This document shows, piece after piece, positions 345 to 45,268 of a stretch of DNA of 64,000 nt. The translations under genes were made by a program, and so were the position numbers. The notes beneath the pieces were generated by a model. That model was given only the letters and a program-made list of their open reading frames with translations, searched no databases and was not told where the DNA came from. The stretch's first letter is position 1, and every line of letters begins with the position of its first letter. The stretch is from Promethearchaeota archaeon. Lineage in GTDB: Archaea > Asgardarchaeota > Thorarchaeia > Thorarchaeales > Thorarchaeaceae. The DNA is taken from assembly GCA_014728035.1 (NCBI GenBank), contig WJMJ01000148.1, positions 64,001-128,000 of the forward strand, written 5' to 3'.

Positions 345-905
345 ATGACTTCAACTTATTTCCAACGTCTAGAAAGGTTGAAAAATAGTATCGAAAAGGA
401 AATGGTGCCTCTTCAAGAACTTCCTGATGAATTCGCGTTTTTCTCTTTAGAAGCTAGAAATCTAGATGGAGAATCTAGAAATAAAGCTCTTGGTATCATA
501 TCTGAGATAATTGACATATCTATTGAAAAGACCAGACTAGATATTGCAGGATTGATAGGTGTTGTAGGTGGACATATTGTCGAATTAGATCAAACTGATC
601 CAATGATAATCTTTCCTCAAACATACAATCTTTTTATGAACGTACTTAATATCGCAAAACCAATACTCAAGATTTACAAATATAATCCAAATCAAGACCC
701 ACATGAACTCAACAAGCAATATCCTGAAAGATTCTTTGCATGGTTGGTCCTAGATGATGCGTGGCGTCCAATCTATGCGATTGTTTCAAATTCTGAAAAA
801 GCGAGAAATATGTTATCTAATAACTCACAATTTCTAAAATTTCTTACACCTTATTTAGAATATCATGAAGGATGCAAAAAGATTCATCGAGTATTAAAAC
901 AATAA
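345..905 (+). CDS. Hypothetical protein, paralog 1 of a local 3-member family
   Basis: 186-aa ORF sharing motifs (DIAGLIGVVG, AKPIL, FAW.VLD.AW, YHEGC) with 1820..2836 and 2863..3600. Confidence 0.8.
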   Translation: MTSTYFQRLERLKNSIEKEMVPLQELPDEFAFFSLEARNLDGESRNKALGIISEIIDISIEKTRLDIAGLIGVVGGHIVELDQTDPMIIFPQTYNLFMNVLNIAKPILKIYKYNPNQDPHELNKQYPERFFAWLVLDDAWRPIYAIVSNSEKARNMLSNNSQFLKFLTPYLEYHEGCKKIHRVLKQ

Positions 906-1819: not shown

Positions 1820-2836
1820 ATGACTTCAGCGTATTTTCAACATCTAGAAGAATTACAAAAGCAAATAGACAAGCAAAATGTGACTTCAGAACAGTTAGCA
1901 TCCACTTTCCTATATTTGGTATCTAGCGCAAAAAATCTTGATGTTGAATCTCAAAACGAAGCTGTTGTTAAAATATCCGAGTTAGTAGAATTTGCAAGTG
2001 TGAAAGGAAGTCCTGAGCTAGGAGCTATGCTTGGGATAATTGGTGGAGCAATCATTGAACTCAAAAAAGCAAATCCAATTCTATTACTACCCCAAGTATA
2101 CACACTCATGATGAATATGCTTCATCATGCAAAACCCATTCTAGAAATCTACGCTAATAATCCAAATCCGGACAAACGAGAGTTAAAGCAGAGTAACCCA
2201 CAATCCTTCTATGCTTGGGAGGTTCTTGATAAAGCATGGTTACCTCTCACAACAATCTTTACACACAGTCAACAAGCAAGAGAGAAAATACGAAAGGATA
2301 AGAAATTCCTCGAATTTCTGGAGCCATATGTAAGTCATCACGAAGGATGCATGTGGATATACAGAGCTCTTCATATTTATGATGGAGAGATAATGGTCTT
2401 TCATCCTGAACAGATGTTAGGATATCGAATTATGGTTGAAGATATTGACCACCCATTTACATTATCTAACTTGCTGACTGAGAAGCTAGTAGGAGACCCC
2501 ACTCAAGGATGCATTCCCAAGAAACCAAAGAGCTCCGATATCGCTCAATTCTGGATTTATAATTGGGAGGTTTTGAAAGAGATGCCAGAAGATTTCAAAG
2601 ACCTTTCTGTAATGAAATATCTTAAGAGTCCAGCTTATATGGGTAGTGAAAGCTGGATGTTTGATCTTTCGTTCTATAATGGTATTCCAGTTCTTGTTCT
2701 GATTGACACGGACTTCAAATTTGGTTTTAATATTCCTGGTTCATTTCCCGAGCTCTCATCAAAAATTACAATACTCGAAACTCTTGATAGAACATCCGTA
2801 CAAGATTGGTTATCGAAATTACGAAATACGGAGTAG
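1820..2836 (+). CDS. Hypothetical protein, paralog 2 (with extra ~150-aa C-terminal domain)
   Basis: 338-aa ORF; MTSAYFQHLE start parallels MTSTYFQRLE of paralog 1; shares the upstream motif GAATATTCTATATA. Confidence 0.8.
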   Translation: MTSAYFQHLEELQKQIDKQNVTSEQLASTFLYLVSSAKNLDVESQNEAVVKISELVEFASVKGSPELGAMLGIIGGAIIELKKANPILLLPQVYTLMMNMLHHAKPILEIYANNPNPDKRELKQSNPQSFYAWEVLDKAWLPLTTIFTHSQQAREKIRKDKKFLEFLEPYVSHHEGCMWIYRALHIYDGEIMVFHPEQMLGYRIMVEDIDHPFTLSNLLTEKLVGDPTQGCIPKKPKSSDIAQFWIYNWEVLKEMPEDFKDLSVMKYLKSPAYMGSESWMFDLSFYNGIPVLVLIDTDFKFGFNIPGSFPELSSKITILETLDRTSVQDWLSKLRNTE

Positions 2837-2862
2837 GTTTTGTGCAAGATAGAATAAAAGAA

Positions 2863-3600
2863 ATGTACTTTCAATTCCTTATTGGACTTAAAGAACATGT
2901 AATAGCTGATAATGACCAGATACCAAATCTAGCAGACGTGCTTTCGTTCCTGCATACTATTGGTCCCAGATTAGAAATGGAACTTCAGGAAAAAGCGTTG
3001 ACGGACATTGCTGAAATCATGCAAATATCAGTTAGGATGGGACGTCTCGATATAGCTGGTTTAATCGGTGTTGTAGGTAGTGCGATAGTGAAACAAGAAG
3101 AAGTCTACTCAGTTCAGTATGTTAACCAAGTTTTTAATCTATTTATGAACTGCCTTAATATAGCTAAACCAATACTCCGTGAATACGAACAGAATCCAAA
3201 TCTTAATCTGAATATTTTGAGAAAGAAAGAACCTGAAAGACATTTTGCATGGGATGTGCTAGATGACATATGGCGAGCAATGTATGCGATACTCGTACAT
3301 AGTGAAAAAACAAGAGTGGTTCTTAAAGATAATCAAAAATTGCGTGATTTTCTTGGACTATATGTTGGATATCATGAAGGGTTGAAGTCAGTTACTGAAA
3401 ACTTAGACATATGTGGACACGATACGATAGGAGTTTATATGGGCTGATACTGAATGAATGTCTGGTTACCAGACACACATTCCCTGACCAGGACCGAGCC
3501 AGTTCCAGTACCGTTTCTGGACGAACAACGCTCGGGTGTCCAAGTTTGTCCAACTAATAATGAACGGTGTAAGCAAATTTATGATATACTACAGAATTAG
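2863..3600 (+). pseudogene. Paralog 3, C-terminus interrupted by the 186-bp element
   Basis: Reads MYFQFL...YHEG into the element (stop at 3447). Removing 186 bp gives YHEGCKQIYDILQN* (TAG ends 3600), matching paralog 1 YHEGCKKIHRVLKQ*. May still be expressed with an altered C-terminus. Confidence 0.8.
3380..3568 (+). mobile_element. 186-bp non-autonomous element, copy A (GGT core at both ends)
   Basis: GGT at 3380-3382 and 3566-3568; colinear and ungapped with the reverse complements of 15511-15699 and 45046-45234. Confidence 0.9.
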
Positions 3601-3723
3601 AACTTTTCACTAGTGTAAGTTGATTGCATTGATATGAACTTTTTATTGGTCAAGAATCATTGACTAGCTGGTCAAGGTTGATAGAATAATATTCTTTCTA
3701 CCCACTTACTAATGTGAATAAAA

Positions 3724-15231: not shown

Positions 15232-15419
15232 ACTGTTCTATGCTCAATGGACGATATTTGATATCCGAACATTGTCCGTCCAGAAAGGTACTAGAGCTGG
15301 CTTGATTCTGATTGGAGATTCTGTGTCTTTTAGCCAAATCTTCATCCTGTTTGAGTCTCTATAGGATCCATTCATATCTTGTCCCAAAATATCCAGGTTT
15401 TCGACAGCTGTTTACAACT
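15232..15419 (-). mobile_element. 186-bp element, degenerate copy B (185-bp spacing, AGT core)
   Basis: Aligns along its length with the other copies (e.g. TTGTCCGTCCAGAAA, TTCATCCTGT); bounded by ACT at 15232-34 and 15417-19. Confidence 0.75.
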
Positions 15420-15510: not shown

Positions 15511-15699
15511 ACCGTTCATTTTTAGTTGGACAAACTTAGACACCCGAGCTTTGTTCGTCCAGAAACGGTACTGGAACTGGCTCGGTCCTGGTCAGGGAAT
15601 GTGTGTCTTTAGACCAAATCTCTATTCCAGATCACTCCATATAAACTCCTATCAGATCTTGTCCAACAATGTCCAAGTTTTCAGTAGCTGATTGCTACC
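15511..15699 (-). mobile_element. 186-bp element, copy C, inserted in a terminator hairpin
   Basis: ACC at 15511-13 and 15697-99; removal restores GAGACCCC-TTCG-GGGGTTTC-TATTCTTTTTTT on the minus strand. Confidence 0.9.
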
Positions 15700-15716
15700 C
15701 CCGAAGGGGTCTCAAT

Positions 15717-45045: not shown

Positions 45046-45234
45046 ACCGTTCATTTTTAGTTGGGCAAACTTGGACACCCGAGCGTTGTCCGTCCAGAAA
45101 CGGTACTGGAACTGGCTCGGTCCTTTTCAGGGAATGTGTGTCTGGTGACCAGACCTTCATCCTGTATCATCCCATATAACCTCCTATCAGTTCCTGTCCT
45201 ACAATGTCCAAGTTTCCAGTAGCTGACTGCAACC
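45046..45234 (-). mobile_element. 186-bp element, copy D
   Basis: ACC at 45046-48 and 45232-34; ungapped alignment to copies A and C. Confidence 0.9.
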
Positions 45235-45268
45235 CATCACTTACTCTTTATTTGTGGCTCTAGGCGAG

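What the first reader, a model, noticed from the sequence alone, without database searches (positions are those of the whole stretch)
3431..3590. Element carries a TATA-like box and a conserved hairpin whose loop pairs with its own right end: omegaRNA-like guide scaffold?
Seen in sequence: the right ~100 bp is near-identical in copies A, C and D, while the left half drifts. In copy A it folds as GACAC(3472-76)/GTGTC(3536-40), CCGAGC(3494-99)/GCTCGG(3530-35) and TCCAG(3504-08)/CTGGA(3517-21). The apical loop ACCGTT (3510-15) is the exact complement of the terminal AACGGT (3563-68), a potential pseudoknot. A TTTATA box (3434-39; TTATAT in D) lies ~35 nt upstream. Established: TnpB omegaRNAs of IS200/605/607 elements are encoded at the right end, close with a pseudoknot involving the terminal nucleotides, and take their guide from flanking DNA. 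Inference: each copy could be a self-promoting guide-RNA cassette whose guide is its own right flank (A GTAAGCAAAT..., C TTCTATTCTT..., D ATTCTGATGA...), with a G-rich TAM at the left flank. That would be a dispersed RNA-guided system served by a nuclease encoded elsewhere. A bridge/seek-RNA-type role is an alternative.
Basis: partly seen in the sequence, partly recalled or inferred. Interest (0 to 1): 0.8.

Follow-up and report, generated by a model that had tools for sequence, protein, structure and literature searches.

The report
Guide-RNA mini-transposon in Asgard archaeon
The stretch is the right half of a 190-base, protein-less offshoot of an IS607-type jumping gene in a Thorarchaeota (Asgard) genome that keeps its own promoter and the folded guide-RNA scaffold of a TnpB nuclease encoded elsewhere; such hitch-hikers are already known, so this is a well-supported new example, not a new system.

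Summary
The element (window 3379-3568) is a 190-bp MITE with about 31 copies in this Thorarchaeota MAG. Removing bases 3383-3568 restores the gene it split and leaves a GGGT site.

Its ends match an IS607-type parent: a MerR-HTH serine recombinase TnpA plus a 713-aa TnpB with an intact RuvC triad. The last 65 nt of the MITE lie directly on the tnpB stop codon in at least 43 related loci.

Across about 110 distinct sequences from more than 10 genera, three features covary: the hairpin (P3), a second helix (P4), and the pairing between the hairpin loop and the element's last bases. This is the nexus pseudoknot typical of TnpB omegaRNAs.

Best reading, about 65%: a self-promoted omegaRNA gene whose guide is its right flank, used in trans by TnpB. 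Transcription could not be tested.

Stand-alone mobilised omegaRNAs are published, and this scan has already reported the same kind in other Thorarchaeota genomes. I file it as a new member of a known kind, of moderate interest.

The parts
3379..3568 (+). MITE copy A, 190 bp from GGGT to AACGGT. The net inserted DNA is 3383-3568 (186 bp). No ORF, no terminal inverted repeat, no target duplication.
   Evidence: Boundaries come from the alignment of 14 genomic copies with flanks and from contig-end copies. Removing 3383-3568 restores the reading frame and a C-terminus like the paralog's.
3379..3382 (+). GGGT at the left junction: the conserved target site and candidate TAM. GGT is shared with the right end (CGGT), so the crossover lies inside it.
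   Evidence: G precedes GGT in 51 of 59 distinct insertion sites, and positions further left are variable. The reconstructed empty site is GAA GGGT GTAAGC. Compare the GG core and TGGG target/TAM of CboIStron (10.1101/2023.11.20.567912).
3403..3419 (+). Left-end subterminal motifs TTAGACA and GTGGACA (consensus TTGGACA), 10 nt apart. Presumed binding sites for the TnpA HTH.
   Evidence: The same motif occurs twice, inverted, at the right end (3537-3553) and in the left ends of the full-length elements. That TnpA binds them is inference.
3434..3441 (+). TATA-like box TTTATATG, centred about 25 nt upstream of the first RNA helix.
   Evidence: An 8-mer with at least 6 of 8 matches to TTTATATA lies at -146..-124 (mode -136..-134) from the right end in 57 of 66 distinct MITEs from more than 10 genera. 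A control window has none.
3462..3491 (+). Helix S: CTGGTTA 3462-68 pairs with TGACCAG 3485-91. Its loop holds GACAC, the 5' strand of P1.
   Evidence: An alignment-free duplex of at least 5 bp and -7 kcal/mol or better is found in 47 of 56 distinct sequences, with 37 different paired strands. The partner-swap control is only modest, -9.5 vs -8.1 kcal/mol, so this helix is tentative.
3472..3476 (+). P1 5' strand GACAC. It pairs with GTGTC 3536-40 and crosses S, so it is a pseudoknot.
   Evidence: 95.6% of cells pair. One pair covaries: CG 46, UA 10, UG 5, GC 1.
3494..3499 (+). P2 5' strand CCGAGC. It pairs with GCTCGG 3530-35.
   Evidence: RNAalifold recovers it on the raw MAFFT alignment. Pair types are CG 45/AU 13/GC 1, AU 27/GC 20/CG 10 and GC 57/AU 4.
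3504..3521 (+). P3 hairpin (TCCAG / CTGGA), nexus-like, with loop TACCGTTT. The loop bases 3510-3516 form PK strand 1.
   Evidence: Shared by MITEs and full-length elements, where it encodes the last residues of TnpB. Pair types are CG 57/UA 50 and GC 94/CG 8/UA 3 over 110 distinct sequences.
3523..3551 (+). P4: 3523-3528 (consensus GGACAA; copy A reads GAACAA, with G>A at 3524) pairs with TTGTCC 3546-3551. It encloses the 3' strands of P2 and P1 (3530-3540).
   Evidence: The pair at columns 32-61 is GC 90/UA 11/CG 2. In full-length elements the enclosed bases instead form hairpin H2, with 5 pairs each paired in at least 27 of 28 sequences and compensatory changes.
3537..3553 (+). Right-end subterminal motifs TGTCCAA x2, 10 nt apart and inverted relative to the left end.
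   Evidence: Read. Conserved in 12 of 16 genera of the family.
3562..3568 (+). PK strand 2 (GAACGGT), the last bases of the element. It pairs with loop 3510-3516.
   Evidence: Over 110 distinct sequences the inner pair is CG 47, UG 33, GC 14, UA 13, AU 1, other 2. A further pair is CG 96/UG 5/UA 3. 95.2% of cells pair (independent count).
3569..3588 (+). Predicted guide: the first ~20 nt of the right flank (GTAAGCAAAT...). It would match the empty allele next to GGGT.
   Evidence: Inference from the omegaRNA rule. Right flanks at +1..+10 show no conservation over 59 sites.
2806..3600 (+). Host gene split by copy A: 2806-3382 plus 3569-3600. No Pfam family.
   Evidence: The restored end ...YHEGCKQIYDILQN* matches the paralog 345-905, which ends ...YHEGCKKIHRVLKQ*. 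No Pfam hit.
15511..15700 (-). MITE copy C, with all helices intact.
   Evidence: Scores 113.6 bits with model R1.
45046..45235 (-). MITE copy D. The S 3' strand is mutated (TGACCAG to TGAAAAG).
   Evidence: Scores 109.4 bits.
15232..15402 (-). Degenerate copy B.
   Evidence: 70% identity by blastn. Scores 48.8 bits with R1.

Best explanation
The element is a 190-bp non-autonomous offshoot (MITE) of an IS607-family insertion sequence of Thorarchaeota.

Its two ends carry the sites that the family's serine recombinase TnpA needs, supplied in trans, to cut it out scarlessly and insert it at GGGT sites. Between the ends it carries a small gene: a TATA-box promoter that should start transcription near 3462, followed by a ~107-nt folded RNA that ends exactly at the element's last base. 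Transcription would then read on into the flank.

The 3' core of that RNA consists of hairpin P3, helix P4, and the pairing of the P3 loop with the terminal GAACGGT. This core is the same as the one overlapping the 3' end of the family's 713-aa tnpB gene. It is therefore the omegaRNA scaffold with its nexus pseudoknot. The MITE replaces the parent's second hairpin with its own 5' domain (S, P1, P2).

Proposed mechanism: the RNA, carrying ~16-20 nt of right-flank sequence as its guide, loads into TnpB made from a full-length element. When TnpA excises the MITE, the RNP cuts the vacated GGGT-flanked site, and recombinational repair from a sister copy puts the element back.

Shown: homology to the tnpB right end, covariation of the helices and the pseudoknot, the conserved promoter box, the target site and scarless excision geometry, and the presence of one intact TnpA and one intact TnpB gene in the assembly.

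Inferred: transcription, TnpB binding, guide use and homing.
For: Copy number and recent activity:
- About 31 modules scoring at least 82 bits in the genome.
- At least 14 are near-identical copies that break the k=141 assembly.

Parent elements:
- C25 carries a left end, a truncated MerR-HTH tnpA and a 713-aa TnpB. The TnpB matches PF07282 at 1.4e-15 and NF040570 at 3e-19.
- C16 carries a left end and an intact 204-aa TnpA with MerR plus Resolvase domains. It is the only Resolvase gene in the assembly.
- The TnpB RuvC residues D488, E597 and D692 and the zinc-finger cysteines are invariant in 34 homologs.
- The AF2 model's best PDB matches are Cas12f (5.5e-10) and TnpB.

Right end and RNA structure:
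- The same 65-nt right end sits at the tnpB stop in at least 43 of 80 loci.
- The shared core P3-P4-PK pairs in 95.0% of cells against 89.6% in shuffles, with 107 double-change cells against 28.9 (0 of 500 shuffles). The inner PK pair is CG 47/UG 33/GC 14/UA 13.
- Compensatory changes in P3 alter TnpB amino acids, which argues for a nucleic-acid constraint rather than a coding one.
- The MITE-specific helices P2 and P1 covary.
- The MITE middle has no homolog in 82 full-length loci, yet it is conserved in architecture across more than 10 genera.

Promoter and target:
- A TATA box at a fixed offset in 57 of 66 copies.
- A GGGT target and a variable right flank.

Literature:
- A nexus-to-3'-end pseudoknot is universal and essential in TnpB omegaRNAs, and an IS607 element has a GG core with TGGG as both target and TAM (10.1101/2023.11.20.567912).
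- Stand-alone omegaRNAs work in trans (PMC10691335; PMC10055086).
Against: - No RNA evidence of any kind.
- Copy A alone does not fold better than shuffles (z = -0.46), and the MFE picks other pairings.
- Within MITEs alone the pseudoknot shows no double changes. Its covariation comes from pooling with full-length elements.
- Helix S is only weakly supported by the partner-swap control.
- P1 and P2 cross P4, so all helices can coexist only as a complex pseudoknot or as alternative states.
- The MITE 5' domain is absent from the parent's RNA, so TnpB acceptance of the MITE RNA is unproven.
- Only one intact tnpB is assembled, and the genome is a MAG with 8.5% contamination.
- Copy A has a mismatch in P4, and copy D has a broken S.
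- The TGTCCAA motifs overlap the RNA helices, so part of the conservation is surely due to TnpA binding.
Confidence: 0.65

Rival explanations
1. Inert relic. The MITE needs only its ends for TnpA. The RNA fold is inherited baggage from the parent's omegaRNA and is neither transcribed nor used.
For: No expression data. Single-sequence folding is unremarkable. Some copies carry helix-breaking changes, such as D in S and A in P4. An earlier follow-up on a related element in a genome lacking the nuclease reached this reading (e1-5445440).
Against: The MITE-specific 5' domain and TATA box have no counterpart in the parent. They nevertheless keep their architecture, spacing and base-pairing through many compensatory changes in more than 10 genera. 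That pattern requires selection acting on the MITE's own RNA. An intact TnpB gene is present here.
Confidence: 0.17
2. A structured non-coding RNA made by the MITE with a job other than guiding TnpB. Examples: a decoy or regulator of TnpA or TnpB, a stabilising or terminator element, or a host-exapted sRNA.
For: The 5' domain (S, P1, P2) is not part of the parent's scaffold. It pairs with the bases that form the parent's second hairpin, which could change or block TnpB binding.
Against: The RNA keeps exactly the parts that define an omegaRNA: a nexus hairpin, a pseudoknot to the last bases, and an end at the transposon boundary next to a variable flank. No Rfam family matches. Nothing points to a specific alternative function.
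Confidence: 0.1
3. DNA-level signal only. The conserved right end and its inverted repeats are recombinase binding or synapsis sites, or single-strand DNA hairpins as in IS200/605 PATEs.
For: TTGGACA/TGTCCAA motifs are mirrored at both ends with 10-nt spacing. The last 65 nt are the most conserved part.
Against: Paired positions change on both sides while keeping complementarity, for example TCCAG/CTGGA to CCCAC/GTGGG and GGACA/TGTCC to GTACA/TGTAC. The change in the right-end motif is compensated inside the right end, not in the left-end motif. The transposase is a serine recombinase acting on duplex DNA. Only a 36-residue Y1 fragment exists in the assembly.
Confidence: 0.04
4. Bridge or seeker RNA of an IS110-type recombinase.
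For: One IS110-family transposase gene exists in the assembly (C150).
Against: No MITE-like sequence lies on that contig. At least 14 identical copies sit at unrelated flanks that share only GGGT, so no internal loop can encode the target. The ends match an IS607 TnpA/TnpB element instead.
Confidence: 0.01

Closest known systems
Stand-alone, mobilised omegaRNAs of OMEGA systems (Altae-Tran et al. 2021, as summarised in PMC10691335)
   Same: Both are guide-RNA loci that lack effector and transposase, were evidently mobilised, and sit in the same genome as effector-containing loci. The published ones were shown to work in trans with a compatible effector.
   Different: Here the host is an Asgard archaeon and the parent is IS607-type with a 713-aa TnpB. 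The element has an archaeal TATA promoter, and a MITE-specific pseudoknotted 5' domain replaces the parent's second hairpin. Function in trans is not shown here.
PATE-like protein-less IS200/IS605 elements of Geobacillus stearothermophilus that 'often encode omegaRNAs' (PMC10055086)
   Same: Both are miniature non-autonomous elements with the parent's ends. TnpA mobilises them in trans, and their omegaRNA must be used by TnpB encoded in another element.
   Different: Those elements move as single-stranded DNA by a Y1 transposase and have subterminal DNA hairpins and a TTGAT-type TAM. This one belongs to a serine-recombinase (duplex DNA, GG core) family.
IS607-family CboIStron of Clostridium botulinum: TnpA_S, TnpB, omegaRNA (10.1101/2023.11.20.567912)
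   Same: - No inverted repeats and no target duplication.
- Scarless excision.
- A GG core with a G-rich target that equals the TAM: TGGG there, (W)GGG(T) here.
- An omegaRNA at the right end that overlaps the tnpB 3' end.
- A nexus stem-loop whose loop pairs with the scaffold's 3' end.
   Different: The published element is full-length, bacterial, and carries a group I intron and a ~400-aa TnpB. This one is a gene-less archaeal derivative with a remodelled scaffold. No sequence or Rfam similarity was found.
IS110 bridge RNA
   Same: Both would be a structured non-coding RNA encoded at a transposon end in an element without inverted repeats.
   Different: A bridge RNA carries the target and donor guides in internal loops and is linked to a DEDD recombinase. 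Here identical copies sit at different targets, and the linked genes are TnpA (serine recombinase) and TnpB.

Membership tests
TnpB omegaRNA (OMEGA guide RNA) | Encoded at the transposon right end, overlapping or abutting the 3' end of tnpB. | tested here: met
   The 65-nt core of the MITE RNA (P3 to the end) lies on the tnpB stop codon in C25 and in at least 43 of 80 related loci. In the MITE itself tnpB is absent, which makes it the stand-alone form.
TnpB omegaRNA (OMEGA guide RNA) | A nexus stem-loop whose loop pairs with the 3' end of the scaffold as a pseudoknot. | tested here: met
   7 pairs, 95.2% of cells paired. The inner pair is CG 47/UG 33/GC 14/UA 13, and a second pair is CG 96/UG 5/UA 3, over 110 distinct sequences. 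Within MITEs alone there is conservation but no double change.
TnpB omegaRNA (OMEGA guide RNA) | The scaffold ends at the transposon boundary, and the guide is the variable flanking DNA. | tested here: met
   The last paired base is the last base of the element (3568). Flanks at +1..+10 show no conservation over 59 sites. Actual use as a guide is not testable here.
TnpB omegaRNA (OMEGA guide RNA) | The TAM recognised by TnpB equals the transposon's target-site motif at the left flank. | tested here: inconclusive
   A conserved GGGT at the left junction and in the reconstructed empty site fits the published IS607 TGGG. TAM recognition by this TnpB was not and cannot be assayed here.
TnpB omegaRNA (OMEGA guide RNA) | Transcribed and bound by a catalytically competent TnpB. 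| not testable with these tools
A TnpB with an intact RuvC triad and zinc finger is encoded in the genome, and its model is Cas12f/TnpB-like.
IS607 family (non-autonomous derivative) | A transposase with an N-terminal MerR-type HTH followed by a serine-recombinase catalytic domain. | tested here: met
   C16 TnpA, 204 aa: MerR 8e-10 at residues 11-45 and Resolvase 3.4e-18 at residues 69-192. A truncated copy lies upstream of tnpB in C25. TnpA is present in only 4 of 80 related loci.
IS607 family (non-autonomous derivative) | No terminal inverted repeats, no target duplication, scarless excision at a GG-containing core. | tested here: met
   The junctions are nGGGT...AACGGTn with no repeat of flank. 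Removing 186 bp restores the split gene in frame and leaves GGGT.
IS607 family (non-autonomous derivative) | Ends shared with an autonomous or TnpB-bearing element of the same genome. | tested here: met
   The left end (GGGTTGC...TTGGACA x2) and the right end are homologous to those of the C25 and C16 elements.
IS200/IS605 PATE | Mobilised by a Y1 (HUH) transposase, with subterminal imperfect DNA hairpins at both ends. | tested here: not met
   Only a 36-residue Y1 fragment at a contig edge. The linked transposase is a serine recombinase.
IS110 bridge RNA | Linked to a DEDD recombinase, with internal loops complementary to target and donor. | tested here: not met
   The single IS110 gene (C150) has no MITE sequence nearby. 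Identical copies lie at unrelated targets.
Any Rfam family | A match to a curated covariance model. | tested here: not met
   No match at gathering score over the window, nor at E up to 10 over 3300-3700.

The most novel reading that the evidence does not exclude
The MITE is not a simple deletion product. It is an evolved, dedicated guide-RNA gene.

Its promoter and its pseudoknotted 5' domain (S, P1, P2) have no counterpart in the parent element. That domain pairs into the very bases that form the parent's second stem-loop.

If this domain gives the RNA something the parent gets from the tnpB mRNA, such as TnpB-independent 5' end definition, stability or preferential loading, then about 30 dispersed, separately promoted guides compete for one nuclease gene. 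That would be a natural intermediate between cis-encoded transposon guides and trans-encoded guide sets such as tracrRNA/crRNA, in the archaeal lineage closest to eukaryotes.
Probability: 0.15. Interest if true: 0.6.

Novelty: new member of a known kind. Interest (0 to 1): 0.35.

Why it matters
The finding documents, with covariation evidence, the omegaRNA core of a Thorarchaeota-specific clade of unusually large (~700-730 aa) IS607-type TnpB nucleases. That core is a nexus hairpin, a second stem-loop and a terminal pseudoknot.

It also shows that gene-less MITEs carrying a self-promoted, remodelled version of that RNA outnumber the nuclease gene about 30 to 1 and are spread through one Asgard family.

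Three uses follow:
- It gives a ready scaffold, a TAM hypothesis (GGG/GGGT) and a guide position for anyone testing these nucleases.
- It offers a natural case for studying how guides encoded in trans evolve.
- It explains many assembly breaks and at least one split gene in these MAGs.

It does not reveal a new kind of system.

Tried and rejected
No expression test was possible.
- Orthologous empty sites: three G001 insertion sites are empty in G000 (C45, C99). The flanks are 25-30% diverged, so the junction could not be read to the base. The split-gene reconstruction was used instead.
- Single-sequence thermodynamics: z = -0.46, uninformative.
- Rfam: nothing, even at E up to 10.
- Helix S by partner swapping between lineages: only a 1.4 kcal/mol advantage. 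The CM-fitted alignment mis-registers S for the G000 type. S is therefore kept as tentative.
- A possible upstream hairpin in the full-length RNA, using synonymous sites of the HADVNAA codons: 25 of 42 paired, not supported. RNAalifold on 200 nt of 42 full-length ends found only P3 with confidence.
- Origin of the MITE middle: no homolog in 82 full-length loci. The idea that the MITE TATA box is the tnpA promoter was dropped, because the offsets from the left end differ by about 10 nt.
- Antisense ORFs between tnpA and tnpB (539 aa in C16, 320 aa in L133): not homologous to each other and no Pfam hit. Probably spurious.
- The other TnpB-like genes of the genome (C128, C123, C151) do not share these ends.
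- The bridge-RNA, PATE and DNA-only readings were considered and rejected (see the rival explanations).
Full report
**What is there**

All three stems, the loop ACCGTT, the terminal AACGGT and the TTTATA box are at the stated coordinates.

The 48-nt core recurs at 15538-15585 and 45073-45120 on the minus strand with 1-2 mismatches. Zero matches are expected by chance. The repeat unit is 190 bp. Copy A is 3379-3568, copy C is 15511-15700 (-) and copy D is 45046-45235 (-). The right 100 nt are 92-95% identical between copies, and the left 90 nt 74-80%.

**A mobile element and its host**

The window is contig C121 of a 4.33-Mb, 173-contig MAG. BLAST and a covariance model find about 31 intact right-hand modules.

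At least 14 left ends and 14 right ends sit on contig tips. They overlap identically in the middle. A near-identical subfamily of the 190-bp element itself therefore breaks the k=141 assembly, which is a sign of recent activity.

Aligned copies start with GGGT and end with AACGGT. They have no terminal inverted repeat and no duplicated flank.

Homologs of the linked nuclease are all named Candidatus Thorarchaeota. The model finds the module in 9 of 17 sampled genomes of the same family and in 0 of 103 other genomes of the phylum.

**The parent element**

A Pfam scan of the genome for the TnpB zinc-ribbon domain hit C25:210120-210293. That is immediately upstream of a partial match to the MITE's right end.

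The locus (L031, minus strand) reads as follows:
- a left end, GGGGTTGC...TTTGGACAAAGTTGGACA;
- a truncated MerR-HTH tnpA;
- a 713-aa TnpB-family ORF whose last codons and downstream bases are TCCAGTACCGTTGCTGGACGGAC...GTCCAAGTTTGTCCAAG...CAACGGT.

A second element at the end of C16 has the same kind of left end and an intact 204-aa TnpA with MerR plus Resolvase domains. It is the only Resolvase-domain gene in the assembly.

The N-terminal HTH plus serine-recombinase layout, the absence of inverted repeats and target duplications, and the GG-containing junction are the IS607 hallmarks. Only 4 of 80 related loci keep a tnpA, so most full-length relatives are also mobilised in trans.

The TnpB clade is ~700-730 aa. 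It has invariant RuvC residues D488, E597 and D692 and four invariant cysteines. Its AF2 model (pLDDT 77.9) matches Cas12f best (5.5e-10), then TnpB 8h1j and Fanzor2 9b0l.

**Target site**

An earlier first-reader note (e1-5560840) suggested that copy A splits a gene, and I tested this. The frame of ORF 2806 gives GAA (3376-78), GGG (3379-81) and T3382. Joining T3382 to G3569 T3570 yields TGT AAG CAA ... TAG, which reads ...YHEGCKQIYDILQN*. The paralog at 345-905 ends ...YHEGCKKIHRVLKQ*.

So 186 bp (3383-3568) were inserted, and the empty site is GAA-GGGT-GTAAGC. GGT is shared by both junctions, so the crossover lies inside it.

Over 59 distinct sites, the base before GGT is G in 51. Positions further left and the right flank at +1..+10 are unconstrained.

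For the IS607-family CboIStron, a strict GG core and a TGGG target that equals the TnpB TAM have been shown experimentally (10.1101/2023.11.20.567912).

**The RNA core shared with tnpB**

I fetched 80 full-length loci and many MITEs from 10 or more genera. I then aligned the last 68 nt of 110 distinct sequences with MAFFT, without fitting to any structure.

Three helices were counted:
In the full-length genes these changes alter the encoded amino acids, for example SSAVPG to PTAVGG.
- P4 (GGACA/UGUCC, 3523-28 with 3546-51) has GC 90/UA 11/CG 2. The change in the second TGTCCAA motif is compensated inside the right end, not in the left-end motif. This argues for RNA pairing rather than protein binding.
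- The pseudoknot between the P3 loop and the last seven bases pairs in 95.2% of cells. Its inner pair is CG 47, UG 33, GC 14, UA 13, and another pair is CG 96/UG 5/UA 3.

Overall, 95.0% of cells pair against 89.6% in shuffles. There are 107 double-change cells against 28.9 ± 12 (0 of 500 shuffles reach this), and slid controls give 29-50%.

Full-length elements also have a hairpin H2 (GCUUG-AUGUC-CAAGU) inside P4. Each of its five pairs is paired in at least 27 of 28 sequences, with compensatory variants.

This arrangement is a nexus hairpin, a second stem-loop and a 3' tail that pairs back to the nexus loop right before the guide. It is the architecture described as universal for TnpB omegaRNAs and essential for cleavage (10.1101/2023.11.20.567912).

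**What the MITE adds**

In MITEs the bases that form H2 in the parent are GCUCGG-GUGUC. They pair with two upstream strands.

On 64 distinct MITE sequences (MAFFT alignment A2), P2 shows CG 45/AU 13, AU 27/GC 20/CG 10 and GC 57/AU 4. P1 shows one covarying pair, CG 46/UA 10/UG 5.

A further helix, S (3462-68 with 3485-91), encloses the P1 5' strand. It is found without an alignment in 47 of 56 sequences, with many different strand sequences. The partner-swap control is weak, so I treat S as tentative.

P1 and P2 cross both S and P4. The full fold is therefore a multiple pseudoknot or a set of alternative states, which I could not resolve.

A covariance model built on S, P2 and P3 separates the two types. 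MITE-type copies score 80-118 bits and full-length ends 51-67 bits.

The MITE middle (3420-3505) has no homolog in 82 full-length loci. One relative (L200) is by contrast a plain deletion derivative, with the left end fused to the last ~130 nt of tnpB.

**Promoter**

An 8-mer with at least 6 of 8 matches to TTTATATA lies 124-146 nt (mode 134-136) before the right end in 57 of 66 distinct MITEs. A control window has none.

Its centre is about 25 nt upstream of the first base of helix S. That is the usual archaeal TATA-to-start distance (my own knowledge). The predicted RNA would start near 3462 and carry a ~107-nt scaffold.

**Interpretation and limits**

The most economical reading is a gene-less IS607 MITE that carries a self-promoted omegaRNA. 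Its guide is its own right flank. It is mobilised by the single TnpA and served by the single intact TnpB of the genome.

Its likely role, by analogy with the homing function shown for IS605 and IS607 elements, is to restore the element at vacated sites.

Single-sequence folding gives no signal, and Rfam has no match.

**Novelty**

Stand-alone, mobilised omegaRNAs that act in trans are already described (PMC10691335, citing Altae-Tran 2021). PATE-like IS605 elements encoding omegaRNAs are also described (PMC10055086).

This scan has already reported the same kind of element in several other Thorarchaeota genomes. I reached the reading independently before seeing those notes, and they agree with it.

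The new points here are the archaeal (Asgard) IS607 context, the covariation-backed scaffold for the large TnpB clade, and the MITE-specific 5' domain and promoter.

Noticed in passing
G000 C25:210078-212216 (-) = L031:2576-4717 (-): A 713-aa TnpB-family protein, almost twice the usual TnpB size. All ~110 homologs are 650-730 aa and come only from Thorarchaeota-labelled assemblies. The RuvC triad and zinc finger are invariant. The AF2 model is Cas12f/TnpB-like, with a poorly modelled N-terminal ~90 residues and a helical extension. Its relation to Fanzor-sized eukaryotic relatives was not examined by phylogeny.
   Followed up: partly
L037:1527-3146 (-) (G000 C16) and L133:1551-2513 (-): In the rare elements that keep an intact tnpA, the space between tnpA and a shortened tnpB (504 aa in L133) holds a long antisense ORF (539 aa and 320 aa). 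The two ORFs are not homologous and have no Pfam match. They are probably spurious ORFs over a decayed tnpB 5' part, but this is unexplained.
   Followed up: partly
L200:31-245 (-) (G008 C117): A different, simpler miniature. The left end is fused directly to the last ~130 nt of tnpB, identical to the full-length copy L199, without the MITE-specific 5' domain. This shows independent routes to gene-less guide-carrying derivatives.
   Followed up: no
window 345-905, 1820-2836, 2806-3382+3569-3600: Three tandem paralogous genes of unknown function with no Pfam family. They share a conserved ...NIAKPIL...YNPN...HEGC... region. The third is the gene split by MITE copy A.
   Followed up: partly
G000 C99:79998-80138 (contig end): A MITE right end followed at once by a fragment of another MITE's right end (CCGAGTTTGTTCAGC...GAACAGT). 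This is a nested insertion into the GGGTGT stretch of an older copy. The left side is missing at the contig end, so the junction could not be read.
   Followed up: no
L047:1443-1559 (+) (G017 C33): A MITE copy with a 16-nt internal duplication inside the P3 loop, so that CCGTTTCT occurs twice. This gives two alternative pseudoknot strands.
   Followed up: no
G000 C128:777-2246 (+), C123:1517-3193 (-), C150:922-1401 (-): Other mobile-element genes in the assembly: two further TnpB-like ORFs (489 and 558 aa) with unrelated ends, and one IS110-family transposase. None is linked to the MITE.
   Followed up: partly
window 3460-3474: In copy A and its subfamily, a perfect local hairpin GTCTGG-TTA-CCAGAC competes with helices S and P1. 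It is not conserved in other subfamilies or genera.
   Followed up: partly
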